Part shown: positions 4,416 through 57,990 of the stretch, one piece after another
Layout of the letters: every line of letters starts with the position of its first letter
Position numbering within the stretch: position 1 is the first letter of the stretch
NCBI GenBank assembly: GCA_016287565.1
Contig: JAEFAM010000001.1
Coordinates: 137,344 to 201,343, forward strand
Length of the DNA stretch: 64,000 bases
Direction of reading: 5' to 3'
DNA from: Clostridia bacterium
GTDB lineage: Bacteria; Bacillota; Clostridia; UBA1212; UBA1255
The notes under the pieces: model-generated
What the model saw: only the letters and a program-made list of their open reading frames with translations
Databases searched by the model: none
Told to the model about the DNA's origin: nothing
Position numbers and translations under genes: made by a program

Positions 4416-4417
4416 AA

Positions 4418-13900: not shown

Positions 13901-14346
13901 ATGATTGGCACCTGATGGCCAACGTCATCAACGTGAAGATCGACTGGAACACAGATCCCGGTAAGGCGGGGCTTGTCATCAGCAAGATCGTGGAAGGCGA
14001 AACGGCAGGCAGCAACTTCATTTTTGAGATCGAAAAGGTCGGCGGACCAGGTGAGGAAGACGGCGAAGAAAACGAGCAGGCCGAACCGTTCAGGAAGCTC
14101 ACCGTCATCATCCCGGGCAGCGGCTCCGTAAAGATCGCAGACGTCGCCCCCGGAGTTTACCGCGTTACCGAGATCACGAGCTGGAGCTGGAGATACGACG
14201 CGACAAGTGAAGTTTCCGTAGAGGTCACGATCGAAGGCGAAGATGATGTGACGGTCACGTTCACGAACGCTTTGAACGGCAAAAACTGGCTGAATGCGGA
14301 GACGAGAGCTGACAACTTCTTCTGGCCACAAGAACCGGCCGGCTAG
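7945..14346 (+). CDS. Giant secreted cell-surface protein (2133 aa): signal peptide, about 12 parallel beta-helix-type repeats (x-ITINGGTV...GAGIGGG), a Listeria-Bacteroides (Flg_new) repeat, multiple CnaB/SpaA-like prealbumin-fold domains, and acidic low-complexity linkers.
   Basis: Signal peptide MGRKLISFILALLICVNIMPAGVNA. Repeated INGGTV/AAIGGGG units. GFIFGDWYKTNAFDELFDFEEPIMTNTVVYGRW. Several VxKKWxD...YRVRELDxDGN CnaB-like modules. SGNNSGD and D/E-rich stretches. No LPXTG or TM anchor at the C-terminus. Confidence 0.85.
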   Translation: MGRKLISFILALLICVNIMPAGVNAGDGDAPGAGTGNVPDTGTSGAGNTSVIKNGGEDISVGDAKAGSYVIHFYPLGEGAADYYDMVATVWDADGNSIGRFPMGAYGLDLWEPKKVDAFFDVDPATIKIKCMYKPEGAETYEEITFEHDFEEFCYDRIASGELHVVQNETVDFCKYTIECVKHDDGTLPGVLYVDADGNPHYQPKCYGLSNHGFTNILTDSNEEYENDGWYSLRADYTGENGYNVPIYVNGDVNLVLCDGSALESSTFMLMDGSSLTIWQQREGTGKLTIVGEKVTGIGTSNQYYPGIQVETGSSLTINGGIIDVTGQDYCAGIGGRYEHGSGAITINAGTVTVKGGTTHNSTSWTGGAAIGGGGHGSNGPIVINGGTVTAKPGALSYGAAIGSGDEADGGPITINGGTVITDATIGAGSHSKSGAVTINGGTVEVDSKSIGIGGSTNGPITITGGTVRVYTTYVRTAIGASGSQEDPIIISGGTVIAKCSSSAGEYSGQAAAIGGGGGGHAGSAGVIIISGKDTNVIAISEDGAGIGSGGVGRDMNGQLMGDPAESAGDITIEDGFVFAMSTKSGAGIGGGNGCNGGKVTINGGYVIAYGGSSAYNWYTDGAQDTAGSGTPGASDDPINAYMESFLYDLIADAILDLIFSNTYSAAGIGGGSGGTGGTVNVNGGIVVARGGTNECSAIGWGKDASTVALSIYNGAKVTYGHWNDGNDNINIDGWTTGNDKAQKARDNAYAKIEPGPLTVRFDVGAHGTPPETQVVTMGQTATRPDDPSEEGFIFGDWYKTNAFDELFDFEEPIMTNTVVYGRWLTAFDLTVKKIWPEGAEQELPASVTVNYTNKISEEKTETGALTLTAENGWTANITLSEISILTLTEEHAEGFVADGWTLTCGLESRDVTGPEGAQGGGKGTAVLNLRDASALNLSAETLAALRNGGGTVALNNKKARIYSAEKRWDIPQNNYKPATVSVVLQHKNGGTWETVETVILSEEKGWKADFSPLPETAGMDADYRVRELDQDGNPVLDAADEGGAQQPTVTFGIEPWTDTHMDMSYKVSYTDGVSGKTIIKNTAGEYYYVKIIWQSNDGVIDMPETVTVNLFKTGSFVDYLTLSAANNWEGVFQGQMDSADYRAREEDCDDKTVFVSDLDSEAFPGSDYDKAVYIVEKDGAQRIYEFDVTVEVSDRGRTTVITNTKSGVVFTAKKVWNTPDDSLWPQRIYRVSAVLQKRVTPEGEDAEPMWQDVERIDLGADIRWEGRFPSVRIGQDFDEDNYRVREFIKNVAYGYSNIKIDAGTDDPEAEGRLMLLPGDSDNTDRKPAHFSCEYRYINGSMSDYEYSSAGFTVSYERDEDGTFVIKNTQDGIVTVEKKWTDSDGKEIKDGIPESVKVVLQKKDNGEWTTVGEASVLNKENSWRKSFDLTGELDLNDISADLANYRVRELDEEGNIVYDADDSDKPEDAKGKISFKVKTGKDDETADVYFAASYKTGSAGGSYTVTNKLLGGRFVIEKEWDVDLEKTDCPDSVEAVIQAKNGDEWETVKLIELKGKEEESGNNSGDSSGNNSGDGNNSGGNSESDSENEEWKTVVYLPLTKKTDDGKTVKIEYRVRELREETALDELMGRLKDFIKQGKDKYDEWIETLKTDGSKYYNMLPDAIKEAANQGYEQLLDKLNATPNDLYDKLMEKLDEVTSGNRIVYDKDDPEVKKEDGKGGDDDDGDEDEKPETNAVRFHVKEKNSVVSGGSVDAHVTKYSVEYKEEDGTFTITNKAILDIDLIKRWLAIGVEEEDMPESAWVVLLFKPKEGAVDKAGGIASSAGVDISGVLDFEFPVINPEDGGRDPVSIISELVTGIDINIFSSLEIVPKLAIDKVDEDSNWTKTYTVSKYYCGIPMEYKGAELSSEIIRQIVKYLTDGAIDSPVSYNPFDNYFSIPTPAIRTLAGITDPGTFLDFSALTGKFLEKAKSLTMDDIRNFGPETLLDDWHLMANVINVKIDWNTDPGKAGLVISKIVEGETAGSNFIFEIEKVGGPGEEDGEENEQAEPFRKLTVIIPGSGSVKIADVAPGVYRVTEITSWSWRYDATSEVSVEVTIEGEDDVTVTFTNALNGKNWLNAETRADNFFWPQEPAG

Positions 14347-18524: not shown

Positions 18525-18599
18525 CAGTGGAACGGTGACAGACTTGAGTTTTCGTGCCGTCAAACGGTTCTCGAACGGGTGACAGACTTGATTTAATTT
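18520..18599 (+). repeat. Dispersed repeat element E1 (modules A+, B+, A+) overlapping the stop codon of the upstream CDS.
   Basis: AACGGTGACAGACTTGAGTTTT / CGTGCCGTCAAACGGTTCTCG / AACGGGTGACAGACTTGATTT. Confidence 0.8.
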
Positions 18600-18676: not shown

Positions 18677-19963
18677 ATGGCGGAAGCAGCGGAGAAACGT
18701 GTTGACCCGGGAGCAGGAGCAGAAGAGCCGAGGCCGGAGCCGAGAGTTGCCCGGTTCGAGCAGCTGGCGTTCGGGATGTTTGTGCATTTCGGGCTTTATT
18801 CGATACTGGGGCGCGGCGAATGGGTGCGCGAGATCGAAAAGATCCCGGCGGACGAGTACGAGCCGCTGGCCGGGCGGTTCGAGCCGGGCAATATGCGGCA
18901 GATCGTCAAGGTCGCGAAGGCGGCGGGCTGTTCGTACGTGACGTTGACAACGCGGCATCACGACGGTTTTTCGTTGTACGATGCAGGCGAAGCGAATGAG
19001 AATGTTTGCGATGCTTTTGACGCGGTCAGGTCAGCCGCCGGGCGCGATCTGGTTGCCGAATTTGTTGACGCGTGCCGGGGCGAGGGGCTGTTGCCGTTCT
19101 TTTATCACACGACGCTGGACTGGCACCGGCGGGAATTTCGCGAGGATTTCCCGGCGTATTTGCGGTATCTGGAGCGGAGCGTGGAGATCCTGTGCCGGAA
19201 TTACGGGCCGGTGGGCGGTTTCTGGTTCGACGGCAACTGGTCGCGAAACGACGTTGACTGGCAGGAAGAGAGGCTTTACAAGCTGATCCGGCGACTTCAG
19301 CCGGAGGCGATGATCATCAACAACACCGGGCTGGAGGCGCGCGGCAAACTCGGGTGCGAGGAAATCGACGCGGTCACCTTCGAGCGAGGGCGGCCTGATC
19401 CGATGGACCGGCGGGGGCAACCGAAATACGTTGCCGCGGAGATGTGCGAGACGCTTTGCGACCATTGGGGCAAGGCGGCGCTTGACGTCAATTTCAAGTC
19501 GGTGGGCCTGCTGATCGAGGAGCTTTGCGAGTGCCGGAAGGTTGGGGCCAATTTTTTGCTGAACGTGGGGCCGGACGGTGACGGTTCGGTGGACGGTATG
19601 CAGCGGGCGACGATGGAGTGCATCGGGCGCTGGATGAGCGTGTATGGAAGGGCGATCCGCAACGGGCGTCCTTTTTTGCGTTATCCTGACCGGCGGGAGT
19701 TCCTGCTCCGCGACGCTTTTGACGACAATGTCGCGTATCTTTTTAAATTTGATCCTTCGAAATATGTGGAGCCGGGGCCGGTCGCGCCGGACGCCAACCG
19801 TCTGGTGCTGGGGCGGATCCCGGGAAAAGTCGCGTCGATCCGCTGGATGGACGGGAAAGAGGCGGCTTTCGAGCAGCGCGGCAACGAGCTGGCGGTGGAG
19901 CTGACGCCTTTTCCGTACGGGACGAGCTTTCCGGTGCGGGTGGCGGAGGTCGTGTTTGAATAA
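18677..19963 (+). CDS. Alpha-L-fucosidase (GH29).
   Basis: FGMFVHFGLYS...AKAAGCSYVTLTTRHHDGFSLYD...FWFDGNW are diagnostic GH29 motifs. Confidence 0.85.
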   Translation: MAEAAEKRVDPGAGAEEPRPEPRVARFEQLAFGMFVHFGLYSILGRGEWVREIEKIPADEYEPLAGRFEPGNMRQIVKVAKAAGCSYVTLTTRHHDGFSLYDAGEANENVCDAFDAVRSAAGRDLVAEFVDACRGEGLLPFFYHTTLDWHRREFREDFPAYLRYLERSVEILCRNYGPVGGFWFDGNWSRNDVDWQEERLYKLIRRLQPEAMIINNTGLEARGKLGCEEIDAVTFERGRPDPMDRRGQPKYVAAEMCETLCDHWGKAALDVNFKSVGLLIEELCECRKVGANFLLNVGPDGDGSVDGMQRATMECIGRWMSVYGRAIRNGRPFLRYPDRREFLLRDAFDDNVAYLFKFDPSKYVEPGPVAPDANRLVLGRIPGKVASIRWMDGKEAAFEQRGNELAVELTPFPYGTSFPVRVAEVVFE

Positions 19964-20094
19964 GCGAGAACCGTTTGACGGCACGCAAAAAGCAAGTCTG
20001 TCACGCGTTCGCACCTCGGAAAAACCAAGTCTGTCACCTGTTCGCTTACCCGTCTAAACGGCTTCGCGTGAATACCTAAATAAGGAAGACAATT
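19964..20094 (-). repeat. Dispersed repeat element E2 (B-, A-, A-, partial C, D). Module D AATAAGGAAG supplies the RBS of the downstream gene.
   Basis: GCGAGAACCGTTTGACGGCACG, two CAAGTCTGTCAC units, TTACCCGTCTAAACGGCTTCGCG, then CCTAAATAAGGAAGACAATT just before the ATG. Confidence 0.8.
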
Positions 20095-21036
20095 ATGAGC
20101 AATATCATTGAAATAAACAGCCTCGACGCACCTGAACTTGACCCGATCCTGCGGCTCACCGGCCGCCAGCTGGTCAATAAATTGCACCCCGACGAGGGGT
20201 CGTTCGTCGTCGAGAGCCCGATCGCTATTGACGCGGCGCTTACCGCCGGGTGCGAACCCGTGGCGCTGCTGGTGGAGGAGCGGTTCATCCGGGGCAATAT
20301 GCAGGGCAGGGCGGCGGAAATCGTTGACCGTGTCGGCAATGCGCCGGTCTACGTGGCTTCCCGGGAGCTGCTTGCGGGAATAACCGGCTTCGAGCTGACG
20401 CGCGGGGCAATGTGCGTGATGCGGAGGCCGGCGGAGCGGGGCTGGCGCGAGGTGATTGCCGGGGCAAGAAGGGTCGCCGTGCTGGAAAATATCGTTGACA
20501 GCACTAACGTGGGGGCAATTTTTCGCTCTGCCGCGGGGCTGGGCATTGACACGGTGCTGCTGACGCCCGAGTGCTGCGATCCGCTGTGCAGGCGTGCGGT
20601 GCGCGTGAGCATGGGGACGGTGTTGATGGTGCCTTTTGCGCGGATCTGCGAGGAAGCGGAAAACAGGCCGCGAACGGGGGACAGACTTGGGTTTTCGCCG
20701 GCGCGAACGGGGGACAGACTTGGGTTTTCGCCGCCGCGAACGGGTGACAGACTTGAGTTTTCCGGGTCCGGCTGGCCTCTTCCGGCGATCGACGAATTGA
20801 AAAAAAGCGGGTTCAAACTGGCGGCAATGGCGCTTCGCGACGACTCTCTGGCGGTCAACGACCCTGCCCTTCGCTCGGCGGAGAAGCTGGCGATCGTTCT
20901 GGGCACGGAGGGTGACGGACTTCTGCAGGAGACGATCGACAATTGCGATTACACGGTCTGCATTCCCATGGCGGGGCGGGTCGATTCATTGAACGTCGGA
21001 GCCGCAGCGGCCATCGCATTTTTCGAAATGGTTTAA
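20095..21036 (+). CDS. TrmH/SpoU-family RNA 2'-O-methyltransferase (RlmB-like), carrying an in-frame 33-aa insertion derived from the repeat element.
   Basis: SpoU motifs VLENIVDSTNVGAIFRSAAGLG, LAIVLGTEGDGL, CIPMAGRVDSLNVGAAAAIAF. An inserted (RTGDRLGFSPA)x3 segment sits between conserved blocks. Confidence 0.85.
   Translation: MSNIIEINSLDAPELDPILRLTGRQLVNKLHPDEGSFVVESPIAIDAALTAGCEPVALLVEERFIRGNMQGRAAEIVDRVGNAPVYVASRELLAGITGFELTRGAMCVMRRPAERGWREVIAGARRVAVLENIVDSTNVGAIFRSAAGLGIDTVLLTPECCDPLCRRAVRVSMGTVLMVPFARICEEAENRPRTGDRLGFSPARTGDRLGFSPPRTGDRLEFSGSGWPLPAIDELKKSGFKLAAMALRDDSLAVNDPALRSAEKLAIVLGTEGDGLLQETIDNCDYTVCIPMAGRVDSLNVGAAAAIAFFEMV
20668..20765 (+). repeat. Three tandem 33-nt copies of repeat module A inside the TrmH-family CDS (in-frame).
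   Basis: CGAACGGGGGACAGACTTGGGTTTTCGCCGGCG x2 plus CGAACGGGTGACAGACTTGAGTTTTCCGG. Confidence 0.85.
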
Positions 21037-21043
21037 GTCAGGT

Positions 21044-21208
21044 GCGAACAGGTAACAGACTTGAGTTTTTGTCCTACCTCATTTAAAAACCAGCGAGAAG
21101 CCGTTTAGACTGGTAAGAATTTTGTCTTTCCAAAATTCGTGCCGTCAAACGGTTCTCGTGCGAACAGGTGACAGACTTGAGTTTTTCCCTTGAGTTTTTC
21201 CTCTTTCC
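21044..21208 (+). repeat. Dispersed repeat element E4 (A+, C-, B+, A+, partial tail).
   Basis: GCGAACAGGTAACAGACTTGAGTTTTT ... CGAGAAGCCGTTTAGACTGGTAAGAATTTTGTCTTTCCAAAATT CGTGCCGTCAAACGGTTCTCG TGCGAACAGGTGACAGACTTGAGTTTTT. Confidence 0.8.
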
Positions 21209-22722: not shown

Positions 22723-24300
22723 ATGAAAAAATTTTTAGGCATCGAACTGGGATCCACGAGGATAAAATCCGTCCTCACCGACGAACGGGGGACAGTGATC
22801 GCGAAAGGCATATTCGACTGGGAAAACAGGCTTGTCCGGGGGCTGTGGAGCTACGACCTGGACGAAGCGCTGCGAGGCCTGGCGGAGAGTTACAAAGAGC
22901 TCTCGGAGGAATATGCGAAAAAAACGGGAGAAACGCTGAAAAAAGTTGACGCGGTGGGAATTTCCGGCATGATGCACGGATATCTGGCGCTGGACGACGA
23001 AGACCGGCAGGTGGGGATATTCCAGACGTGGCGCAACACCCACACGGAAGCCGCGGCGACGGAATTGTCCGAGCTGTTCCGGTTCAACGTGCCGCAGCGG
23101 TGGAGCGTTGCCCAGTATTACCAGGCGGAGCTGTCCGGCGAGGACCACGTCAGGCATGCGGCGAAGCTGTTCACGCTGGCGGGGTACGTGCATTACAGGC
23201 TCACGGGCAACCACGTGTCGGGCGTGGGCGAGGCGTCGGGCATGTTTCCGGTGAACGGGAACGATTACGACGGAACAATGATCGAGGCGTTCGACAGGCG
23301 GCTGGCCGAGCGGGGGCTCCAGGTGCGGTTCCGTCAACTGCTTCCGAGGATCCAGATGGCGGGCGAGATCGGCGGCTATCTGACGCCCGAAGGCGCGAAA
23401 CTGATCGATCCCAGCGGCGAGCTGCTGCCGGGAGCGCCGCTGTGCCCTCCCGAAGGCGACATTCAGACCAATATGGTCTGCGCCAACTCCATCGCGGCGG
23501 GCGCGGGCAACGTTTCTGCCGGCACTTCCTGCAATCTGGTTGCCGTGCTGGACAAGCTTCCGGCCACTTACAGCCCCGACATCGACATCGTTTCCACGCC
23601 CGACGGATTGCCCGCGGCAATGATACATTCCAACAACTGCACTTCCGAGATCAACGCCTGGATCAACCTTTTCGGTGAATTGACCGCGCTTTTCGGACGG
23701 GAAGTGCCTAAAAACGAGCTTTTCCGGCAGCTTTTCCGCCATTCGCTGGAGAGCGACGGCGACGTGGGCGGCCTCGTGGGGTACAACTACCTGGCGGGCG
23801 AGGCCATTGCCGGGTGCGAGACCGGCGCCCTGACCGTCTCCCGCAACCCCTCGGGCAAGCTTTCTCTTGCCAACTTTATGCAGATGCAGATCTATTCCGC
23901 GCTGGGTGCGCTGTCTCTCGGCGTGGACAATCTTCGTTCCATCGGGGCCAACATCCGTTTCGTTACGGCGGCGGGCGGCTATTACAAGACCGAGTTCGTG
24001 GGGCAGAACGCTACTTCGTCAATGTTTGGCGTTCCCGTGACGGTGATGGCGGGCGCGGGCGAGGGCGGCCCCTGGGGCATGGCCCTGCTGGCGATCTATA
24101 TGTTCGTCGCGAACGGGGGACAGACTTGCGTTCGCGGCGGTGAGCTGACGCTGGCGCGGTTCCTGGACGACGTCTTTGCCGACGTGGAGAAGACTACCGT
24201 CATGGCGACGCAGGAGGAGATCGACAAGTGCCGCCGGTTTACCGAGAGGTACAAGAAGTGCCTTGACGCGCAGCGCAGGATGACGGAGCTTATTCGATAA
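22723..24300 (+). CDS. FGGY-family carbohydrate kinase (putative xylulokinase) with a 9-aa in-frame repeat-derived insertion.
   Basis: GIELGSTRIKSV N-terminal ATPase motif. About 525 aa. Follows xylA. RBS AAAGGAG. The NGGQTCVRG segment is encoded by the repeat. Confidence 0.8.
   Translation: MKKFLGIELGSTRIKSVLTDERGTVIAKGIFDWENRLVRGLWSYDLDEALRGLAESYKELSEEYAKKTGETLKKVDAVGISGMMHGYLALDDEDRQVGIFQTWRNTHTEAAATELSELFRFNVPQRWSVAQYYQAELSGEDHVRHAAKLFTLAGYVHYRLTGNHVSGVGEASGMFPVNGNDYDGTMIEAFDRRLAERGLQVRFRQLLPRIQMAGEIGGYLTPEGAKLIDPSGELLPGAPLCPPEGDIQTNMVCANSIAAGAGNVSAGTSCNLVAVLDKLPATYSPDIDIVSTPDGLPAAMIHSNNCTSEINAWINLFGELTALFGREVPKNELFRQLFRHSLESDGDVGGLVGYNYLAGEAIAGCETGALTVSRNPSGKLSLANFMQMQIYSALGALSLGVDNLRSIGANIRFVTAAGGYYKTEFVGQNATSSMFGVPVTVMAGAGEGGPWGMALLAIYMFVANGGQTCVRGGELTLARFLDDVFADVEKTTVMATQEEIDKCRRFTERYKKCLDAQRRMTELIR
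24108..24136 (+). repeat. Single repeat module A (palindromic CGCGAACG-GGGGACAGACTTG-CGTTCGCG) inserted in-frame in the FGGY kinase CDS.
   Basis: Identical 27-nt core to the copy at 39299-39327. Confidence 0.8.
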
Positions 24301-24302
24301 AG

Positions 24303-24450
24303 ACGCGAACCGTTTGACGGCACGAAGCGCGAACCGTTTGAGGGCACGAATTTTGGAAAGACAAAATTCTTACCCGCCTAAACGGCTTCGCGCGGGTTTT
24401 AAATAAGGAAAGAATTGCCCGAAACCCAAGTCTGTCACCTGTTCGCGGGC
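24303..24450 (-). repeat. Dispersed repeat element E6 (B-, B-, C, D, A-).
   Basis: GCGAACCGTTTGACGGCACGAA x2, AATTTTGGAAAGACAAAATTCTTACCCGCCTAAACGGCTTCGCG, TTAAATAAGGAAAG, CCCAAGTCTGTCACCTGTTCGCG. Confidence 0.8.
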
Positions 24451-24530: not shown

Positions 24531-26378
24531 ATGAAGAAAAGAACGCGCATAACAGTATTGACGCTCGCACTGGCGCTGGCCGCGGCGATATTGACCGGGC
24601 TCAGTTCCTGCGGAAAAACGGGCGGTGACGGAGATCCCAACCGGTTGTCGCGGGAGGACCAGGCGAGGGCGGAAAAACTGTTGTCCTCGGTGAGCGTGTC
24701 GGAGGTCCCGGCCATCAAAAACGAGAAGGTCGCCGCGGCGCAGGAGGATCCGGACATTTCGGTGTGGTTCGACCATTCGTTCCGCAACACGCCGGCGGAG
24801 GACGTGACGCCCACAGATTTCGACGCGTACCAGATCAAGCTGGCGAAAAACGAGATCGAGGGGTGCCACTTTATTGTCGCCTCGAAAACGGCGAAAACCG
24901 ATATTTCGCTCTCGGTATCGCCATTCATTGACGCTGCGGGGCACGTTCTGGACTGCGAGGTGTGCTACGGCTGGTATTTCGAGGGCGTCGAGGGCAAGAC
25001 CGTCGCAGATCCGATCCCGGTGCTGGAGCACAGCTTCGATCTGGCCGCCGGACGCAGCCAGATGTTTATTATCAAGGTCAAATCTACCGCCGAAACGAAC
25101 GCGGGTCAATATTCTGCCGTGGTGACGTTGACGGACGGCGCGGGCAAGGAGCTGAAAAAGGCCAACGTTTATGCATTCGTATGGGATTTTGCCCTTCCCG
25201 CCGCCTCCAGCTGCAAGACGCTCAGCGACCTCAACGAATGGAGCGTGATCGTGGGCGCCAACCGCGAAGAGACCACCGTTGACGGTCTCGAAGACGATCT
25301 TTACGCGCTTTATTACGAATATTTGCTGGAAAATAAGATAAATTGCTACACTTTGCCCTACGCGAAACGGGGCCAGTTTTGGGACGAGCGGGTGGAGCAG
25401 TACCTGGACGACCCGCGGCTGACGGCGTACACGCTGTGCTGGAAGATCCATCCGGAAGCCACTGCCAGCGACGACAACCTGAAAGCGTACCTCCAGGCGG
25501 CCTACGACCGGGTCTCGAAGAAGCAGGAGTGGCTGGACAAGGCATATTTTTACCCCAACGAGGGGGACGAACCGCTCACGCAGGCGACTCTGGACCTCAT
25601 AAAAAAGTACGATTCCATGTACACTGCCGTTTTCGGCAGCCACAAACTGATAATTCCCGTTCATTACGACACGGTACTGCCCTCCGGCGACGATTTCTTC
25701 CGCTATTTGGAGGATGCGGTCAACGTCTGGTGCCCGAAAACCTACTTTTTTAACACCGCGGCGGACAAAAAATACAACGATCAGCTCTACACGGAGTTCT
25801 ACGGACCCGAAATGGAGAGCAATTTCGGCCTGTTCAAAGACCGGATGGCCGCGGCCCGGGCGGACGGCGACGAAGTGTGGTGGTACGTCACCCGCTTCCC
25901 CCACGACCCCGAGATCACGTTGTCCATCAGCGACGAATCCGTGAAGCACCGCCTGCTGTTCTGGCAGCAAAAGCTGTACAACGTTGACGGATTTTTGTAT
26001 TACATGGTCAACGACTGGGAAAATGCCAAACAATGGACGAAAAAGTATGAGAGCGACGTCATGGGGACGACGGTCAACACCTACGGCAACGGCGTGCTGA
26101 TCTACCCGGGCGGGGCGCTTCAGGAATATATCGACAAGTACGGGAGCGACGGCTACCCGGGCCCCATCGGTTCGCTCAGGCTGGAGTCGGTGCGCGACGG
26201 GGTGGAAGATTACGATTATTTCACGATCCTCGATCAGCTTTACGGCGAAGGAACGTCAACCCTGCTGATCAGGCAGATCACCACGTCGCTGGGCTCTTAC
26301 AGCACGGACACGGAACTGTTCGACAGGCTGAGGACGGCGGCGGGGGACCTGATAGCGAAAAAGACTGCGCGAAACTGA
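24531..26378 (+). CDS. Lipoprotein with a DUF4091-like putative glycoside-hydrolase domain.
   Basis: Lipobox LTGLSSCG. 615 aa. VWDFALP and other blocks recalled as DUF4091-like. Assignment is from memory and is moderate. Confidence 0.7.
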   Translation: MKKRTRITVLTLALALAAAILTGLSSCGKTGGDGDPNRLSREDQARAEKLLSSVSVSEVPAIKNEKVAAAQEDPDISVWFDHSFRNTPAEDVTPTDFDAYQIKLAKNEIEGCHFIVASKTAKTDISLSVSPFIDAAGHVLDCEVCYGWYFEGVEGKTVADPIPVLEHSFDLAAGRSQMFIIKVKSTAETNAGQYSAVVTLTDGAGKELKKANVYAFVWDFALPAASSCKTLSDLNEWSVIVGANREETTVDGLEDDLYALYYEYLLENKINCYTLPYAKRGQFWDERVEQYLDDPRLTAYTLCWKIHPEATASDDNLKAYLQAAYDRVSKKQEWLDKAYFYPNEGDEPLTQATLDLIKKYDSMYTAVFGSHKLIIPVHYDTVLPSGDDFFRYLEDAVNVWCPKTYFFNTAADKKYNDQLYTEFYGPEMESNFGLFKDRMAAARADGDEVWWYVTRFPHDPEITLSISDESVKHRLLFWQQKLYNVDGFLYYMVNDWENAKQWTKKYESDVMGTTVNTYGNGVLIYPGGALQEYIDKYGSDGYPGPIGSLRLESVRDGVEDYDYFTILDQLYGEGTSTLLIRQITTSLGSYSTDTELFDRLRTAAGDLIAKKTARN

Positions 26379-26441
26379 AGTCTGTCACCCGTTCGAGAAC
26401 CGTTTGACGGCACGAAACTGAAGTCTGTCCCTCGTTCGGGG
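26378..26441 (-). repeat. Dispersed repeat element E7 (A-, B-, A-), starting at the stop codon of the upstream CDS.
   Basis: GAAGTCTGTCACCCGTTCG AGAACCGTTTGACGGCACGAA ACTGAAGTCTGTCCCTCGTTCGGGG. Confidence 0.8.
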
Positions 26442-29456: not shown

Positions 29457-30321
29457 AACGGTATTCAGTTACGGCTTCGTTTTCCGGGCAATGCTGGTGG
29501 GCGTCCTGATCTCGGTCTGCGCGGCGCTGCTCGGCGTCAGCCTGGTGCTCAGGCGCTGCTCCATGATCGGAGACGGGCTGTCCCACGTAGGCTTCGGAGC
29601 GCTGGCGGTCGCCGCGGCGCTGGGGGCCGCTCAATTGTGGGTGGCGCTACCGGTGGTCGTGGTGGTGGCTTTCCTCATAATAAGGCTGGGAGACGATTCC
29701 AAGCTCAGCAGCGATTCGGCCATTGCCCTGCTTTCCAGCGGCGTCCTTGCCCTGGGCGTCATGATCGTGTCGCTCACCGGCTCCAACACTAACCTCAGCG
29801 ACTTCCTGTTCGGATCGGTTTTTGCCCTCGGGGAAGCCGACGCGATCCTCAGCCTGGTGCTTTCCGTCATCGTACTGGCGCTTTTCGTGCTGTTCTACAA
29901 CAAGATCTTCGCAGTGACTTTCGATGCCGCGTTCGCCCGGGCGACCGGTACCCGCGAAGGTTTTTACAATACTTTCATCGCGCTGCTCACCGCCGTAACC
30001 GTGGTGGTCGGTATGCGTCTCGTTGGCGCCCTGCTCGTGACGAGCCTGATAATTTTCCCGCCGCTCACGGCAATGAGGGTCTGCAAGAAATTCCGCTCCG
30101 TGGTGATCTGCTCCGGCGTGCTGTCCGCGCTCAGCTTCGTCATCGGAATGATGATCTCCCTGGGCGTGCGCTCCGCTCCCGTGGGCGCCAGCGTCGTGCT
30201 GGTCAACGTGGTGTTTTTCCTGCTTTTCCTCTGCGCAGGGAAGGTCAGGTCAATGATCCGTACCCGGACCGACGGGGGCCGGGATGGTACGGATCCGCAG
30301 CCGGGGGACCGGGGACAATGA
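29425..30321 (+). CDS. Metal ABC transporter permease (ZnuB/MntB-like).
   Basis: MNAAIITDIFKTVFSYGFVFRAMLVGVLISV... polytopic ABC-3 permease pattern. Overlaps the znuC-like stop. Confidence 0.8.
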   Translation: MNAAIITDIFKTVFSYGFVFRAMLVGVLISVCAALLGVSLVLRRCSMIGDGLSHVGFGALAVAAALGAAQLWVALPVVVVVAFLIIRLGDDSKLSSDSAIALLSSGVLALGVMIVSLTGSNTNLSDFLFGSVFALGEADAILSLVLSVIVLALFVLFYNKIFAVTFDAAFARATGTREGFYNTFIALLTAVTVVVGMRLVGALLVTSLIIFPPLTAMRVCKKFRSVVICSGVLSALSFVIGMMISLGVRSAPVGASVVLVNVVFFLLFLCAGKVRSMIRTRTDGGRDGTDPQPGDRGQ

Positions 30322-31457
30322 CCGTTTCAACGGCCGTCCCGCCGGGCGCCCCTGCCGGAGAGGCGTCGTGTGCCCCGTCCGGCGCCCCGTCCTGCGCCCC
30401 GGCCGCCGCTGTTGCTCCTTCTTTCGGTCAACGCCTGAAGGCGGAATTCGGCCGGAAAGTTTACAAATTGTCCCTGGATATCGGCTGCACCTGCCCCACC
30501 CGCGACGGCACCAAAGGCACGCGCGGCTGCATTTTCTGCTCTCAGGCCGGCAGCGGCGACTTCGCCGTACGGTTCACCGGCAAACAGGAAGAACTTGACC
30601 TGGCCAAATCCCGTCTCAAAGGCAAGATCGACACGGACAATGCCGGTTTTATCGCTTATTTTCAAAATTTCACCAACACGTACGCTCCCGTTACGTACCT
30701 GGAGACGCTTTTCACCGCCGCGCTGAAAGACCCGTCGGTTGTGGCGTTGTCGATCGCCACGCGGCCCGACTGCCTCGGGAGCGACGTCATCGAAATGATC
30801 CGACGGCTGTGCCTGCGGACAACCATTTTCGTGGAGCTTGGCCTTCAGACCATCCATCCTGCCACCGCGGCTTTCATCCGCCGCGGCTTCGACCTGCGCG
30901 AGTACGACGATGCGGTGGTCGCGCTTCACGGCGCCGGCGCCAGGGTGGTGACCCACCTGATATTCGGGCTGCCTTATCCGGTTGCCGGACGCAAGTCTGT
31001 CCGAGAACCGTTTGACGGCACGAATTTTGGAAAAAACAAAATTCTTACCCGTCTAAACGGCTTCTCGCTGGTTCCGAACAAGGAAAGGAAGCAGGAACTA
31101 AGGCCTGTTATTTGTTCGGCTGAAACGGAACTGGCCCTCGAGTCGAGGGAAATGATGCTGGGATCGGTAAGATACGTTGTCCGCGCCGGAACGGACGGAG
31201 TGAAATTTCAGCTGCTCCACGTACTTAAAGGGACGGACCTGGCGGACCTGTACCTGCGAGGCGCGTTCAGAACGTTGACCTTCGACGAATACAAGGAAAT
31301 AATAAAAGAGGCAGCCGAGCTGCTGCCTCCCGAAATCGCCATTCACCGCCTCACCGGCGACCCGCCGCGAAAACTGCTGATCGCGCCACAATGGTGCACC
31401 GACAAAAAGCGGGTATTGAACGAGATCAATCGAAAAATTCTTCGTAAAGCGCCTTGA
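30318..31457 (+). CDS. TIGR01212-family radical SAM protein (YhcC-like), carrying an about 36-aa in-frame insertion encoded by a composite repeat element.
   Basis: GCTCPTRDGTKGTRGCIFCSQ radical-SAM Cys motif typical of TIGR01212. 379 aa against about 310 aa typical. The inserted segment VAGRKSVREPFDGTNFGKNKILTRLNGFSLVPNKERKQ maps onto repeat modules A-, B-, C. Confidence 0.8.
   Translation: MTVSTAVPPGAPAGEASCAPSGAPSCAPAAAVAPSFGQRLKAEFGRKVYKLSLDIGCTCPTRDGTKGTRGCIFCSQAGSGDFAVRFTGKQEELDLAKSRLKGKIDTDNAGFIAYFQNFTNTYAPVTYLETLFTAALKDPSVVALSIATRPDCLGSDVIEMIRRLCLRTTIFVELGLQTIHPATAAFIRRGFDLREYDDAVVALHGAGARVVTHLIFGLPYPVAGRKSVREPFDGTNFGKNKILTRLNGFSLVPNKERKQELRPVICSAETELALESREMMLGSVRYVVRAGTDGVKFQLLHVLKGTDLADLYLRGAFRTLTFDEYKEIIKEAAELLPPEIAIHRLTGDPPRKLLIAPQWCTDKKRVLNEINRKILRKAP
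30986..31091 (-). repeat. Composite repeat element E8 (A-, B-, C, D-like) lying entirely inside the radical SAM CDS, in-frame.
   Basis: CGGACGCAAGTCTGTCCGAG AACCGTTTGACGGCACGAA TTTTGGAAAAAACAAAATTCTTACCCGTCTAAACGGCTTCTCG ...AACAAGGAAAGG. Confidence 0.8.
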
Positions 31458-35720: not shown

Positions 35721-35851
35721 CCTCAGCTCAGATCCTTTCGTCCGGACCCGGCGCTCTTCCGCCTGTCCGGGCTTTCGCGACGTCAACGCCTCCGTTGCGG
35801 CATTAACTGAATAATACTATATCATTTAAGCTGGAAATTCAAGAGGGTGCA

Positions 35852-36057
35852 GCAGGGGACAGAGGAGCAACGGGGGACAGACCCCGGTTGCCGATGCCGG
35901 AAACGCAAGTCTGTCCGCGAATCGTTTGACGGCACGAATTTTGGAAAGACAAAATTCTTACCCGTCTAAACGACTTCGCGCCGGTTTTGTAATAAGGAAA
36001 CAGAAGTCTGTTCCTCATTTCCTGGCGGGGAAACAGAAGTCTGTCCCTCGTTCGCGG
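35852..36057 (-). repeat. Dispersed repeat element E9 (partial A+, A-, B-, C, D, A-, A-).
   Basis: ...CAACGGGGGACAGAC; GGAAACGCAAGTCTGTCCGCG AATCGTTTGACGGCACGAA TTTTGGAAAGACAAAATTCTTACCCGTCTAAACGACTTCGCG ...TAATAAGGAAACAGAAGTCTGTTCC...CAGAAGTCTGTCCCTCGTTCGCGG. Confidence 0.8.
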
Positions 36058-38442: not shown

Positions 38443-38560
38443 TAATATATTTCCCGGGAAATATTACACGGCGTCGGGAAATAACCGTAAATTTCGAAAA
38501 ACGCCGCGTAAATTCCGGAAAATTACGGAAAAACCCGGGAAATTCCGGGAAAAGTCCGGC
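38443..38560. repeat. Second cluster of TTTCCCGGGAAA-type palindromes (ATATTTCCCGGGAAATATTAC; AACCCGGGAAATTCCGGGAAAAG) upstream of GH36-like gene #2.
   Basis: Same motifs as 28550-28660. Confidence 0.6.
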
Positions 38561-38597
38561 AATGCCGGCGAACAAAAGGAAATCAGGAGTTGTTGTT

Positions 38598-40643
38598 ATG
38601 AAACCGTCAAAAACAGATCTTGCCCTCGGAAAATATCTGCCCCGCTTCACCGAAAGCGGCATCGTCCCCTTCAGCTACAAGCTCGACGGAGTTGCCTATA
38701 ATGGCATCCCCGCGGAATTTTCGCCCAAAGCGGAAACGCGTAAGATCGACGCCAACATCATCTTCTCGGTGATCACCGGCAGGACGCCCGCGGGCCTGGA
38801 GCTCAGGGCCGAATGCAAAGAATATATCGATTATCCCGTGACCGAATGGGTCATGTCTATGACGAACACGGACTCCGCGAATTCGGCGGTGATAACCGGC
38901 TGGCAGGCAGAAGCGGAATTTCCGTTGACGCCATTCAACGAGGAGGCTCCGGAGCCGCGGGACGGGAAAAATAACGCGAAACTTCTCCACGGCAACGGCG
39001 ACAACGTCACCGATCAGGGCTACTCCTGGTTCGTTGACGCGCTGTGCCCCGAGCCCCTCTGCATCGCGCCCTCGGGAGACGGGACCTCCTGCAACGGCGC
39101 ATTCCCGTACATGCGGCTGATCCTGGACGGGTACGACGTCAATATCGCCGTGGGCTGGACCGGGACCTGGCAGCTGACCGCCTCCGAGAGCGGCGGGACC
39201 GTCAAGATCGCTGCGTCTCAGAAGCGTTTCAACACCTACCTCGAACCCGGTGAGACGGTGCGCACCCCGCTGCTGGTGCTCCAGACCGCTTCCGACTGCC
39301 GCGAACGGGGGACAGACTTGCGTTCGGCCGGATGCGACCAGGACGCTGCCCGCAACCTCTGGCGCAGCTGGTACATCGACCACGTGCTGCCCAGGCAGGA
39401 CGGCAGACCCCTTCAGCCCAAGCTGGTGCTCCACACGTTCATGATAGATGGATTGCCCGAATTTTGCGGCGTCACCGAAGAAAACCAGCTAAAAGCGATA
39501 CAGACGTATATTGACCGCCGCCTCAAACCGGACATCTGGTGGATCGACGCAGGCTGGTACCCCTGCAACAACAACTGGCCCACGGGCACCGGCAACTGGT
39601 TCCCGAACCCGGATCATTTCCCCGACGGCATGCATAAGGTCGGAGAAATATGCAAGGCAAACGGCATCGACCTGCTGCTCTGGTTCGAGCCGGAGCGCGT
39701 CTACCGTAACACGGAGCTTTGGAACGACCACCCCGAATATCTGATCTTCGGTGCCCCCGAGGACGACAACGCACTCCTGTTTCTGGGCGATCCCGCCGCC
39801 CGCAGGTGGATCACCGACCGTGTGGACAACGTCATCAAAGAGGCCGGGGTCAATGTCTACCGCCAGGATTTCAACTTCGCGCCTGCGAGCTACTGGGCCC
39901 GCGGCGAGGCGGACAACAGGCAGGGCATTCACGAAAACCTGCATATCCAGGGCTATTATGCATTCTGGGACGAGCTGCTCAGGCGCAACCCCGGGCTCTG
40001 GATCGACTCCTGCTCCTCCGGCGGCCGCCGCAACGACATAGAAACCATGAAGCGCGCCGTGCCCCTCCACTACACCGACATCGGCTACGGCCACCATCCC
40101 ACCAAACAGAAGCAGCACCGCCAGATGTTCGAGTGGATACCATATTTCCGCGCCCACAATATGAGCTGGGACAGGCCAGACGGCACCTACGGCGGCAATA
40201 TGCCCGTTGACGAGTTCGCGTACCAGAACGCCCTCACGCCCTCCGTCACCTCGATGATAGAGTGGAACGACCCGGAGGAGCGGTTCGAGATCGGCCGCGC
40301 GTTCCATCCCATCTGGCGAAAAGCGGCCGAGATCATGCTCCGCGCCGATTACTACCCGTTGACCGAGACCAACGCCAGCCCCGCCGACTGGTATGCCATG
40401 CAGTTCTACGATCCGGAGCGCCGGGACGGTTTCGTCCAGGTGATACGTAATATTGCCGTCGAGGATGGCCGGACGACGCTTTTCGGCTTCGTTCCGGAGG
40501 AAAATCTCCACAGGATCTACCGGTTCTACGACCCGGTCTCCAATCAGGTCTGGACCATGTCCGGCGAGAATTTCCGCTCGGGCGGCTTCGAGGAGACGCT
40601 CCCGAAACGCAGCGGCAGGATCTGGTTCTATTGTGTTTTGTGA
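38598..40643 (+). CDS. GH36-like glycoside hydrolase, cytoplasmic paralog of 4418-6541, carrying a 9-aa in-frame repeat-derived insertion.
   Basis: WWIDAGWY, LLLWFEPE, YRQDFNF, CSSGGRRND motifs. RBS AGGAG. CRERGTDLRS is extra relative to the paralog. Confidence 0.8.
   Translation: MKPSKTDLALGKYLPRFTESGIVPFSYKLDGVAYNGIPAEFSPKAETRKIDANIIFSVITGRTPAGLELRAECKEYIDYPVTEWVMSMTNTDSANSAVITGWQAEAEFPLTPFNEEAPEPRDGKNNAKLLHGNGDNVTDQGYSWFVDALCPEPLCIAPSGDGTSCNGAFPYMRLILDGYDVNIAVGWTGTWQLTASESGGTVKIAASQKRFNTYLEPGETVRTPLLVLQTASDCRERGTDLRSAGCDQDAARNLWRSWYIDHVLPRQDGRPLQPKLVLHTFMIDGLPEFCGVTEENQLKAIQTYIDRRLKPDIWWIDAGWYPCNNNWPTGTGNWFPNPDHFPDGMHKVGEICKANGIDLLLWFEPERVYRNTELWNDHPEYLIFGAPEDDNALLFLGDPAARRWITDRVDNVIKEAGVNVYRQDFNFAPASYWARGEADNRQGIHENLHIQGYYAFWDELLRRNPGLWIDSCSSGGRRNDIETMKRAVPLHYTDIGYGHHPTKQKQHRQMFEWIPYFRAHNMSWDRPDGTYGGNMPVDEFAYQNALTPSVTSMIEWNDPEERFEIGRAFHPIWRKAAEIMLRADYYPLTETNASPADWYAMQFYDPERRDGFVQVIRNIAVEDGRTTLFGFVPEENLHRIYRFYDPVSNQVWTMSGENFRSGGFEETLPKRSGRIWFYCVL
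39299..39327 (+). repeat. Single repeat module A inserted in-frame in GH36-like gene #2.
   Basis: CGCGAACGGGGGACAGACTTGCGTTCGG. The paralog at 4418-6541 lacks these codons at the aligned position. Confidence 0.85.
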
Positions 40644-47155: not shown

Positions 47156-47418
47156 CTTCTTCCGGCGCGTTTTCGGGCAATGGCTGCTCCGCCGCGGCTA
47201 CGGCGTATTTTATAGAAAAAGCGGAACGATTTCAAGAGCGGAACGGTGGACAGGTTTCCGTGGCATCCGTTTCATACTTAACCGTCGGGCAGCATTGTCC
47301 ATGACGGACAAAATCGTGACTGCCGTTCATTTTGTTTTTCCTGAAGTCCTGTGCTATAATTCACCCAGACCGAATCCGCAAAGGAAACAGACAGAACCCG
47401 CAAAGGAGATTGCCGCGT

Positions 47419-56091: not shown

Positions 56092-56222
56092 GCTTGCTCC
56101 GGGGCCGTTGCTGTGAGGAAAAACCGGGGCCTGAGCTTGCTCCGGGGCCGTTGCTGTGAGGAAAAACCGGCGCCTGAGCTTGCTCCGGGGCCGTTGCTGT
56201 GAGGAAAAACCGGCGCCTGAGC
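56087..56222 (+). repeat. Tandem direct repeat, 43-bp unit x about 3.1, beginning at the SGNH gene stop codon.
   Basis: CCTGAGCTTGCTCCGGGGCCGTTGCTGTGAGGAAAAACCGG(G/C)G repeated at 56087, 56130 and 56173, with a partial unit at 56216. Confidence 0.85.
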
Positions 56223-57015: not shown

Positions 57016-57470
57016 GGGCGTTTCGCGCTCGTTTTGGGCAACAGGTAGCGCGGCCTTCTTTCAAACGCCCAGAAATCCGGGTTAAGAGGTAAAAGTTAGG
57101 CGTTTCGCGCTCATTTCCGGCTTTGAGGCAGCGCCACTTTCTTTCAAACGCCCAGAAATCCGGGTTAAGAGGTAAAATGTGGGCGTTTCACGCTCGTTTC
57201 CGGCTTTGAGGCAGCGCCACCTTCTTTCAAACGCCCAGAAATCCGGGTTAAGAGGTAAAATGTGGGCGTTTCACGCTCGTTTCCGGCTTTGAGGCGGCGC
57301 CACCTTTACGAAAACGCCCAGAAATCCAGGTTAAGAGGCAAAATCAGGGCGTTTCTCGCTCATTTTAATCCTCGAGGCGGCGCCACCTTTACGAAAACGC
57401 CCAGAAATCCGGGTTAAGAGGTAAAATGTGGGCGTTTCACGCTCATTTCCGGCTTTGAGACAGCGCCGCG
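57016..57470 (+). repeat. Tandem array of about 5.5 units of an 82-84-bp repeat upstream of rpsO. Each unit contains the inverted repeat CAAACGCCC...GGGCGTTT.
   Basis: Units start at about 57016, 57098, 57181, 57263, 57347 and 57430. Unit: GGGCGTTTCACGCTCGTTTCCGGCTTTGAGGCAGCGCCACCTTCTTTCAAACGCCCAGAAATCCGGGTTAAGAGGTAAAATGT. Confidence 0.85.
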
Positions 57471-57975: not shown

Positions 57976-57990
57976 TCTTTTGGCACAATG

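What the first reader, a model, noticed from the sequence alone, without database searches (positions are those of the whole stretch)
24108..24136. Repeat module inserted in-frame into coding sequences, with the unit open in all six frames
The 27-nt unit CGCGAACGGGGGACAGACTTGCGTTCG lies inside the FGGY kinase (24108-24136, adding NGGQTCVRG) and inside GH36-like gene #2 (39299-39327, adding RERGTDLRS). The secreted paralog at 4418-6541 lacks exactly those residues at the aligned position (...YYEG--RDIDASMNLW versus ...TASDCRERGTDLRSAGCDQDAARNLW). I translated the unit by hand in all three forward and all three reverse frames and found no stop codon in any. The host genes use three different frames across the insertion sites. 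This is the hallmark of Rickettsia RPE-type elements that are tolerated inside proteins.
Basis: partly seen in the sequence, partly recalled or inferred. Interest (0 to 1): 0.9.

Follow-up and report, generated by a model that had tools for sequence, protein, structure and literature searches.

The report
In-frame hairpin repeats inside enzyme genes
A short, hairpin-forming DNA repeat that litters the spaces between genes of an uncultured gut bacterium has also landed inside at least four enzyme genes, where it is kept in frame and read as extra, floppy loop residues. This kind of thing is known from Rickettsia and a few other bacteria, but this repeat family is apparently undescribed.

Summary
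The exact 27-mer CGCGAACGGGGGACAGACTTGCGTTCG lies at 24108-24134 in an FGGY kinase gene and at 39300-39326 in a GH36-like gene; shuffles expect 0 matches. Three tandem 33-nt copies sit in a SpoU methyltransferase gene (20669-20767). The three genes read the unit in three different frames. I also found a 135-nt composite of the same family in frame in a MnmL/YtqA-type radical-SAM gene (30993-31127).

Orthologs at 72% identity or less lack the window's extra residues; one 72% GH36 relative carries a sister repeat at the same loop. Relatives at 79-98% carry other copy numbers at the same sites. AlphaFold places the SpoU and FGGY inserts in loops.

The unit belongs to a REP-like superfamily with a 12-bp stem, an ACAGR loop and a conserved AACGGGGGACAG head. 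It is mostly intergenic and turns over much faster than flanking DNA.

"Open in all six frames" is true but unremarkable, because 16-27% of 27-mers are. The RPE comparison holds as an analogy, not as membership.

Verdict: a new REP/RPE-like family in a probable Clostridia lineage. It is a new member of a known kind, and its mobilising enzyme is unknown.

The parts
24108..24140 (+). One 33-nt repeat unit (exact 27-mer at 24108-24134) in frame in the FGGY sugar-kinase gene. It encodes ANGGQTCVRG (residues 463-472).
   Evidence: Orthologs at 63% identity or less lack it, and the two closest relatives (P0001 at 96-98%, P0002 at 82-85%) have 2 units. It lies in the loop between helices 445-463 and 477-484 of the AF2 model. 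The hairpin folds at -23.2 kcal/mol, z = -4.2.
39300..39338 (+). One repeat unit plus a 12-nt tail, about 39 nt (13 aa), inserted in frame in the GH36-like glycosidase gene. It encodes RERGTDLRSAGCD.
   Evidence: Orthologs at 70% identity or less, and the paralog at 4355-6541, lack it. The relative whose flanking DNA is about 94-95% identical has 2 units with a 42-nt period. A 72% relative has 4 sister units, 2 sense and 2 antisense, at the same site.
20669..20767 (+). Three tandem 33-nt units in frame in the SpoU/TrmH-type RNA methyltransferase gene. They encode (P)RTGDRLGFSP three times.
   Evidence: Relatives have 4 units (P0242), 2 units (P0243) or diverged units (P0244). Orthologs at about 70% identity or less have none. 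Residues 188-224 have pLDDT below 50 and no secondary structure. Pfam, NCBIfam and PDB alignments break there.
30993..31127 (-). A 135-nt composite element in frame in the MnmL/YtqA-type radical-SAM gene, adding 45 aa. It consists of a degenerate unit, a linker, a hairpin module of roughly 70-85 nt and a partial unit.
   Evidence: It is absent from the syntenic relative L013, whose flanks are about 92-95% identical (379 vs 334 aa). TIGR01212 matches the window protein in 2 stretches, with the first ending at residue 220, but matches the L013 protein in 1 stretch. It is open in only 2 of 6 frames, including the frame used. The ambiguity at the insertion junction is 1 nt or less, so there is no target-site duplication.
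20095..21036 (+). Host gene: SpoU-family RNA 2'-O-methyltransferase.
   Evidence: Pfam PF00588.
22723..24300 (+). Host gene: FGGY-family sugar kinase.
   Evidence: Pfam PF00370 and PF02782.
30318..31457 (+). Host gene: radical-SAM tRNA-modification protein (TIGR01212, MnmL/YtqA).
38562..40643 (+). Host gene: GH36-like (Melibiase) glycosidase.
   Evidence: Pfam PF02065.
18530..18596 (+). Two intergenic units separated by the hairpin's right arm (GTGCCGTCAAACGGTTCT).
19963..20086 (-). Intergenic split hairpin module with two units (19984-20012 and 20017-20045) in place of its apical loop.
   Evidence: The relative L013 is arranged differently at this site.
21044..21189 (+). The complete intergenic composite: unit, linker, hairpin module (21076-21162), unit.
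   Evidence: The module folds at -32.7 kcal/mol, z = -4.7.
24303..24447 (-). Intergenic solo right arm, full hairpin module (24327-24409) and one unit (24418-24447).
   Evidence: A 97-nt stretch containing the module is absent from L013.
26367..26438 (-). Two intergenic units flanking a right arm.
   Evidence: L013 has an extra hairpin module here.
35865..36056 (-). Intergenic cluster: the canonical palindromic REP form (35865-35893, + strand), a hairpin module (35911-35998) and two units (35995-36020 and 36028-36056).
   Evidence: The region is entirely restructured in the relative, while its flanks are about 95-96% identical.

Best explanation
The 27-mer is one copy of a short, non-coding, REP-like repeat. 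The unit is about 29-33 nt: a 12-bp imperfect stem, an ACAGR loop and a strongly conserved 5' arm plus loop, AACGGGGGACAG. The repeat has multiplied in this lineage. It sits mostly between genes, alone, in tandem arrays with a period of about 33 nt, or joined to a hairpin module of roughly 70-85 nt.

Copies occasionally land in coding DNA. They survive only when three conditions hold: the added length is a multiple of three, the frame being read has no stop codon, and the site is a surface loop. The G-rich arm and its complement encode Gly/Arg/Thr/Asp or Pro/Ser peptides in every frame. These peptides are flexible and loop-friendly.

Once inside a gene, the unit expands and contracts by replication slippage or unequal recombination, which gives strain-level copy-number variation.

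Shown here: dispersal of the repeat, lineage-specific insertion, translation-compatible structure, loop location and copy-number polymorphism. Inferred: that the spread is transposition-like, that slippage causes the copy-number changes, and that the extra residues are neutral passengers. The mobilising enzyme was not identified.
For: Dispersal. There are 17 units in the window, all between 18.5 and 39.3 kb, of which 5 are in genes. Shuffles expect 0 matches to the 27-mer.

The DNA, not a peptide, is what is conserved. The same DNA is read in three frames as ANGGQTCVRG, RERGTDLRS and RTGDRLGFSP.

The inserts are derived. Orthologs at 72% identity or less lack the window's residues in all three genes. 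TIGR01212 is interrupted only in the window's radical-SAM protein.

There is one new, clean insertion. The 135 nt in the radical-SAM gene are absent from the relative L013.

Copy number varies at the same sites in relatives:
- SpoU: 2, 3 or 4 units.
- FGGY: 1 or 2 units.
- GH36: 1 or 2 units. The sister species has 1 to 3 antisense units.

The reading frame is under selection. Family indels inside genes are 45, 33, 42 and 135 nt, and genic array periods are 33, 33, 42, 45, 45 and 57 nt, all divisible by 3. Intergenic indels are 97, 87, 11 and 9 nt, and intergenic periods include 34, 43, 44 and 55 nt. The FGGY copy has GGGGGACAG where most intergenic copies have GGGTGACAG, which would put TGA in that frame.

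The inserts are in loops. SpoU residues 188-224 have pLDDT below 50 and are coil. FGGY residues 464-476 form a loop between helices.

The hairpin is supported. In a gapless alignment of 59 distinct units from 7 loci, 73.7% of cells are paired, against 53% or less when the partner is slid. The covariation score is 0.263 against 0.161 or less, and 0 of 500 shuffles reach it. The outer pairs switch between GC, CG and UA.

A sister lineage is dense with the repeat. L016, syntenic at about 72% aa identity, has 23 units in 16 kb.
Against: No transposase of any kind was found in the Pfam annotations covering window positions about 12.7-54.2 kb or in the related loci. The remaining genes of the window were not annotated. 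The agent of spread is therefore unknown.

Only one insertion, the radical-SAM one, has a clean empty site in a close relative. For the three unit-only sites, the empty state is seen only in proteins at 72% identity or less, so exact boundaries and target sequences are unknown.

Most of the window's own units have a decayed 3' arm and fold no better than shuffles, with z about 0. The hairpin may therefore not matter in this lineage.

No expression or protein data exist, so translation of the inserts is inferred from frame and stop constraints only. Genome-wide copy number could not be measured. The GTDB-representative scan returned only two unrelated hits.
Confidence: 0.8

Rival explanations
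1. The arrays are purely local in-frame minisatellites. Each genic array arose in place by slippage, and similarity between loci comes from gene conversion rather than from insertion of a mobile unit.
For: Copy number changes at fixed sites between close relatives, and neighbouring units are nearly identical; SpoU units 1 and 2 are 97% identical.
Against: Identical 27-mers occur in unrelated genes and related units occur in about a dozen intergenic spacers. A 135-nt element appears in the radical-SAM gene at a site with no prior family sequence. Orthologs offer no seed sequence at these sites.
Confidence: 0.07
2. The element is domesticated and functional. Either the in-gene hairpins act on the mRNA (ribosome pausing, processing, stability), or the variable loops act as contingency loci that tune the enzymes. 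On this view selection maintains them and they are not merely tolerated.
For: The same sites stay occupied across relatives of 79-98% identity and, for GH36, in a 72% relative. The two genic copies named in the finding are among the best hairpins in the window; the FGGY copy folds at -23 kcal/mol, z = -4.2. The head and loop stay conserved even where the stem decays.
Against: The repeat yields three different peptides in three frames. It appears in either orientation in the GH36 of L016. Copy number is variable. The SpoU segment has low pLDDT and is unstructured. The four host enzymes are unrelated in function. All of this fits passengers better than modules.
Confidence: 0.08
3. The inserts never reach the mature protein. 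They are removed from the mRNA or bypassed by the ribosome, like an intervening sequence or a translational hop.
For: The strong local hairpin in the FGGY copy could in principle support bypassing.
Against: All four genic inserts and all copy-number variants are multiples of 3 and free of stops in the frame used. That would be unnecessary if they were removed. There were no Rfam matches above gathering thresholds, so no intron-like family was detected. The units are far too short for inteins or introns.
Confidence: 0.03
4. The pattern is an assembly or binning artefact of a metagenome-assembled genome.
For: The window comes from metagenomic assemblies, and repeats are a classic source of misassembly.
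Against: The same units at the same sites are found in an independent NCBI assembly contig (L001, 99.985% identical over 13.4 kb). The FGGY and SpoU proteins are each recorded on 7 contigs from NCBI and JGI sources. Related ENA and Logan assemblies have the units at the same sites with different copy numbers.
Confidence: 0.02

Closest known systems
Rickettsia palindromic elements (RPE-1 to RPE-10; Ogata et al. 2000 and 2002, as summarised in PMC10969869 and PMC3733652)
   Same: Both are dispersed palindromic repeats found in frame inside unrelated housekeeping and metabolic genes, without stop codons, adding loop peptides that appear compatible with the fold. The 135-nt radical-SAM insertion is in the RPE size range.
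   Different: The unit in the finding is 27-33 nt, whereas RPEs are about 100-150 bp. It forms tandem arrays that vary between strains. The host is a free-living gut anaerobe, probably a Clostridia member, not an obligate intracellular alphaproteobacterium. No sequence relationship was tested.
REP / BIME / REPIN elements and intragenic REPs (Di Nocera et al. 2013, PMC3733652; Bertels and Rainey 2011, PMC3116915)
   Same: Both are 20-40 nt GC-rich imperfect palindromes, high in density, mostly between genes, often clustered in either orientation, and faster-evolving than their flanks. REPs inside ORFs, including clusters encoding 43-82 aa, are already reported (PMC3733652).
   Different: There is no GTAG or CGTC tag at either end. 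The conserved part is the 5' arm plus loop (AACGGGGGACAG). No RAYT gene was seen. The words Firmicutes and Clostridi- do not occur in the 2013 survey's text.
Pneumococcal BOX elements (boxA, boxB repeated n times, boxC) and mycobacterial MIRU-VNTRs
   Same: Both have a modular build, with one short module present in variable tandem copy number between strains. The behaviour is minisatellite-like.
   Different: Those elements are essentially intergenic and unrelated in sequence. Here the variable module also sits inside enzyme coding sequences. This comparison rests on my own knowledge and was not tested.
Bacterial MITEs (Correia/NEMIS, ERIC, RUP, Nezha)
   Same: The hairpin module of roughly 70-85 nt has inverted arms of about 22 nt and is present or absent between close relatives. 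Intragenic in-frame MITEs are known (PMC10969869).
   Different: There is no target-site duplication at the one clean insertion (1 nt or less), and no parent IS with matching ends was found.

Membership tests
Rickettsia palindromic elements (RPE) | Dispersed repeat inserted in frame, without stops, inside otherwise conserved protein genes | tested here: met
   Four genes in the window carry such inserts. Orthologs lack them, and the reading frame and downstream invariant residues are kept.
Rickettsia palindromic elements (RPE) | Element length about 100-150 bp with a long palindromic structure | tested here: not met
   The unit in the finding is 27-33 nt. Only the separate 135-nt composite in the radical-SAM gene is in that size range.
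Rickettsia palindromic elements (RPE) | Sequence homology to RPE-1 to RPE-10 and residence in Rickettsiales | not tested
   No RPE sequences were available for comparison. The nearest named homologs of the host genes are Clostridia or Oscillospiraceae MAGs, so the host is not Rickettsiales.
Rickettsia palindromic elements (RPE) | Insertions fall at surface positions compatible with the fold | tested here: met
   The SpoU insert is coil with pLDDT below 50, between E181-183 and H231-237. The FGGY insert is in the loop at 464-476. These are models only. GH36 and the radical-SAM protein were not modelled.
REP / REPIN | Imperfect palindrome of 20-40 nt able to form a stem-loop | tested here: met
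   A 12-bp stem with a 5-nt loop is supported over slid registers and shuffles on 59 distinct units. Perfect forms occur in L004 and L012 and at window 35865-35893. Many of the window's own copies have a decayed 3' arm.
REP / REPIN | Many copies per genome, predominantly extragenic | tested here: inconclusive
   Local density is high: 17 units in 21 kb of the window with 12 intergenic, 23 units in 16 kb of L016, and 13 in 14 kb of L004. A whole-genome count was not possible, because the source species gave no hits in the GTDB-representative scan.
REP / REPIN | GTAG or CGTC tetranucleotide tag at one end (the two superfamilies of PMC3733652) | tested here: not met
   Units start with NN(G/C)(C/G)AACGG and end with GTT(K)(C/T). 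No conserved GTAG or CGTC is present.
REP / REPIN | A cognate RAYT (Y1 transposase) gene in the genome, usually flanked by REPs | not testable with these tools
   None was found among the genes annotated for window positions about 12.7-54.2 kb or in L004, L012 (one ORF), L013, L016 and L019. The other genes of the window were not annotated, and the rest of the genome could not be reached.
MITE | Terminal inverted repeats | tested here: met
   The hairpin module has arms of about 22 nt, GCGAGAAGCCGTTTAGACGGG and CCGTCAAACGGTTCTCGC. It folds at -32 to -36 kcal/mol with z from -3.9 to -5.5. This does not apply to the 27-nt unit itself.
MITE | Target-site duplication flanking the insertion | tested here: not met
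   In the radical-SAM filled-versus-empty comparison, the junction ambiguity is 1 nt or less.
MITE | A parent insertion sequence with the same ends | not tested
   No longer element with these ends was seen in the loci held. No dedicated search was possible.

The most novel reading that the evidence does not exclude
The AACGGGGGACAG head and loop stay almost invariant across lineages whose 3' arms have diverged or decayed, and the units lack the GTAG or CGTC tags of RAYT-linked REPs. This would fit a REP-like system in Clostridia served by a different, still unknown, sequence-specific enzyme. The in-gene arrays could then act as rapidly varying loops (contingency loci) in metabolic and RNA-modifying enzymes, rather than as neutral passengers.
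Probability: 0.15. Interest if true: 0.65.

Novelty: new member of a known kind. Interest (0 to 1): 0.5.

Why it matters
This appears to be a well-documented case, outside Proteobacteria, of selfish hairpin repeats being written into proteins. It comes with a natural series of alleles: 0, 1, 2, 3 or 4 units at the same loop in close relatives. Those alleles could be used to test how much insertion enzymes tolerate.

It also matters practically. These repeats create spurious ORFs; for example, a 47-aa "gene" in L016 is made only of repeat units. They inflate protein lengths, break profile matches and are rearrangement hot spots in metagenome-assembled genomes. Annotation and strain typing of these gut Clostridia should take them into account.

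Tried and rejected
- Six-frame openness as evidence. I rejected it because 16% of random 27-mers and 27% of the window's own 27-mers are open in six frames.
- Rfam. The gathering scan of the whole window and the E-value scan of 55.9-58.3 kb found nothing.
- Scan of GTDB species representatives for CGAACGGGKGACAGACTTG. It returned only two hits in unrelated organisms, a cyanobacterium and a Lachnospiraceae MAG, with no other family features. The source species is therefore absent, or its representative lacks this variant.
- JGI metagenome scan. It returned 9 loci, of which 5 are real relatives: L004, L007, L009, L011 and L012.
- Two viral-contig scans. Both gave 0 hits, so the family is not phage-borne.
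- Search for a transposase. None was found by Pfam among the genes annotated in the window and related loci.
- Units in L004, L007, L009, L011 and L012 as further in-gene cases. I rejected this because they lie upstream of the likely start codons.
- The 14-nt match to the repeat head inside the FGGY N-terminus (22782-22795). It causes no length change relative to orthologs, so I did not count it as an insertion.
- The LytR N-terminal indel and the 69-nt indel at the ABC-3/radical-SAM junction between the window and its relative. Neither involves this family.
Full report
**Observation**

The 27-mer CGCGAACGGGGGACAGACTTGCGTTCG occurs exactly at 24108-24134 and 39300-39326. Two further copies with 3 mismatches lie at 20669 and 20702. 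Dinucleotide-preserving shuffles expect no match.

- In the FGGY kinase ORF (22723-24300; Pfam FGGY_N and FGGY_C) the unit reads ANGGQTCVRG.
- In the GH36-like ORF (38562-40643; Pfam Melibiase) it reads RERGTDLRS.
- In the SpoU methyltransferase ORF (20095-21036), three tandem 33-nt units at 20669-20767 read PRTGDRLGFSP three times.

The unit has no stop in any of the six frames. This property is common, however: 16% of random 27-mers of this composition and 27% of the window's own 27-mers share it. It is not a hallmark.

The sequence is not an assembly artefact. An independent NCBI contig (L001) is 99.985% identical over 13.4 kb and carries the same units. The FGGY and SpoU proteins are each recorded on 7 contigs from NCBI and JGI sources.

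**Are these insertions?**

Yes. I aligned about 35-40 homologs for each of the three proteins.

- FGGY: every ortholog at 63% identity or less has a short loop where the window has ANGGQTCVRG. The two closest relatives (P0001 at 96-98% and P0002 at 82-85%, depending on the method) have two units.
- SpoU: orthologs at about 70% identity or less have no unit. Relatives at 83-98% identity to the window have 2 units, 4 units or diverged units, against 3 in the window.
- GH36: orthologs at 70% identity or less, and the paralog at 4355-6541, lack about 13 residues. The GH36 of a relative whose flanking DNA is about 94-95% identical has two units with a 42-nt period.
- GH36 in a syntenic species: at 72% identity (L016) the same loop holds four sister units, two sense and two antisense. 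Strains of that species have one, two or three antisense units.

**A fourth, cleaner case**

I aligned the window to the syntenic contig of a close relative (L013 and L019; aligned blocks are about 92-96% identical, mostly 94-96%). This shows a 135-nt segment at about 30993-31127 inside the radical-SAM ORF 30318-31457 that the relative lacks (379 vs 334 aa).

NCBIfam TIGR01212 (MnmL/YtqA) matches the relative's protein in one stretch. It matches the window's protein in two stretches, the first ending at residue 220. The 45 residues are therefore an insertion, not a deletion in the relative.

The segment is a composite of the same family in reverse orientation. It is open in only two of six frames, one of which is the frame used. 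The usual ATTTAAAA of the linker reads GTTCGGAA in this copy, which removes a stop. The junction shows at most 1 nt of ambiguity, so there is no target-site duplication.

**What the family is**

A profile search finds 17 units in the window. All lie between 18.5 and 39.3 kb, and 12 are intergenic. They occur alone, in tandem (periods of 33, 43 or 44 nt), or attached to a module of roughly 70-85 nt:

GCGAGAAGCCGTTTAGACGGGTAAG - AATTTTGTCTTTCCAAAATT - CGTGCCGTCAAACGGTTCTCG

This module folds into a long hairpin of -32 to -36 kcal/mol, with z from -3.9 to -5.5. Four full and four partial copies are present.

Related contigs show that the unit is a lineage variant of a REP-like superfamily.

- L004 and L012 carry many perfect palindromes, GGCAACGGGGGACAGACCCCCGTTGCC. 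One such copy is in the window at 35865-35893.
- L016 carries TTGGAACGGGGGACAGGTRCYGGTTTT at 23 copies in 16 kb.
- L014 carries GCGCAGGGGACAGACTTGTGCGC.

I made a gapless 29-nt alignment of 59 distinct units. A 12-bp stem with a 5-nt loop has 73.7% of cells paired, against 53% or less in slid registers. Its covariation score is 0.263 against 0.161 or less, and no shuffle out of 500 reaches it. The outer pairs switch between GC, CG and UA.

The 5' arm and loop (AACGGGGGACAG) are nearly invariant, whereas the 3' arm is variable. In the window's commonest variant (…GACAGACTTGAGTTTTCG) the stem has largely decayed, and those copies fold no better than shuffles. The FGGY copy keeps a strong hairpin (-23.2 kcal/mol, z = -4.2), but the GH36 copy in its context does not stand out (-13.9 kcal/mol, z = -0.4).

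**Turnover**

Eleven alignment breaks separate the window from its close relative. Nine of them lie in this family:

- The three genic arrays.
- The radical-SAM insertion.
- Five intergenic spacers, in which modules are present, absent or rearranged in either genome.

The ThrS-IspD spacer is completely restructured, although its flanks are about 95-96% identical.

**Evidence that the genic copies are translated and under selection for frame**

| Context | Indels between window and relative | Tandem periods |
|---|---|---|
| Inside genes | 45, 33, 42, 135 nt | 33, 33, 42, 45, 45, 57 nt |
| Between genes | 97, 87, 11, 9 nt | include 34, 43, 44, 55 nt |

All the genic values are divisible by three; the intergenic values are not constrained in this way.

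Four of five genic units are open in six frames, against one of eleven intergenic units. Most intergenic units carry GGGTGACAG, which gives TGA in exactly the frame that FGGY uses; the FGGY copy has GGGGGACAG.

Residues invariant across the families are retained downstream of each insert.

**Location in the proteins**

In the AlphaFold model of SpoU (mean pLDDT 79.9), residues 188-224 have pLDDT below 50 and no secondary structure. They lie between strand 181-183 and helix 231-237, while neighbouring blocks mostly score above 85. Pfam, NCBIfam and PDB alignments all break at this point.

In the FGGY model (mean pLDDT 89.5), the insert lies in the loop 464-476 between helices 445-463 and 477-484, with a locally lower pLDDT of 78.

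The GH36 insert lies before the catalytic barrel, which PDB homologs align to residues 318-499. It was not modelled, and neither was the radical-SAM insert.

**Mechanism**

The best-supported account is a non-autonomous, REP/MITE-like element that spreads in the genome.

1. Genic copies persist only when they are in frame, free of stops, and in loops.
2. The G-rich arm and its complement encode Gly/Arg/Thr/Asp or Pro/Ser peptides in every frame, which suits loops.
3. Slippage or unequal recombination then changes the copy number.

Dispersal, derived status, frame constraint, loop location and polymorphism are shown. Transposition as the mode of spread is inferred. It rests on one clean filled/empty pair without a target-site duplication, which would fit hairpin-dependent single-strand transposition. 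No transposase was found in any annotated locus.

The rivals are less likely, for the reasons given in their entries: local minisatellites only, a domesticated function, removal before translation, and assembly artefact.

**Comparison with known systems**

In-frame palindromic repeats are known from three sources:

- Rickettsia RPEs.
- REPs inside ORFs in several Proteobacteria and other phyla, including clusters that encode 43-82 aa.
- Intragenic MITEs (PMC3733652, PMC10969869).

This family works like those elements. It is not an RPE: the size class and host are wrong, and sequence relatedness was not tested. It also lacks the GTAG or CGTC tags that define the two large REP superfamilies. 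Firmicutes and Clostridia are not mentioned in that survey.

The host is probably an uncultured Clostridia member, Oscillospiraceae-like, from ruminant gut metagenomes. This is an inference from the names of homologs at about 55-70% identity and from ENA sample labels.

**Verdict**

The finding is real and richer than reported, but it is a new member of a known kind rather than something categorically new. Its interest is moderate. The density is unusual, with 4 of about 17 genes in 24 kb carrying insertions. The allelic series in close relatives makes tolerance of insertions directly testable. The conserved head without a known partner enzyme leaves room for a new REP-enzyme system.

Noticed in passing
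window 57043-57467: An 83-nt unit repeated 5.1 times in tandem (88% matches) in an ORF-poor stretch upstream of an rpsO-like ORF (57713-57976). Each unit holds an inverted repeat (AAACGCCCA...TGGGCGTTT). It is unrelated to the GACAGACTTG family, and the Rfam E-value scan found nothing.
   Followed up: partly
window 56083-56222: A 43-nt unit repeated 3.3 times (97% matches). It starts inside the last codons of ORF 54988-56091 and runs into the spacer.
   Followed up: no
window 38510-38559: A 10-nt unit, AAATTCCGGA, repeated about 4.9 times immediately upstream of the GH36-like start codon at 38562.
   Followed up: no
window 22782-22795: A 14-nt identity to the repeat head (CGAACGGGGGACAG) inside the N-terminus of the FGGY gene, encoding DERGTV. 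It is conserved in the close relative and partly in the 82% relative. There is no length change relative to orthologs. It could be chance, or an old conversion tract.
   Followed up: partly
L016 1008-1151: A 47-aa gene was called entirely within three repeat units. The open frames of the repeat generate spurious ORF calls in public annotations.
   Followed up: partly
window 35845-36054 vs L019 7175-7457: The divergent ThrS-IspD spacer is completely different between two genomes whose flanks are about 95-96% identical. Both versions are built from modules of the family.
   Followed up: partly
window 30284-30292 vs L013 17576-17653: The close relative has about 69 extra nt at the ABC-3/radical-SAM junction, so its ABC-3 protein is 321 aa against 298 aa. 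This segment does not belong to the repeat family.
   Followed up: no
window 47240-47270: A degenerate unit (GCGGAACGGTGGACAGGTTTCCG) in the acyltransferase-rhamnosidase spacer. The relative has a better-preserved unit there (GGAACGGGTGACAGACATCTGTTTC).
   Followed up: partly
window 7945-14346: A 2133-aa ORF with internal imperfect repeats (Flg_new hits on the called product). It is unrelated to the finding.
   Followed up: no
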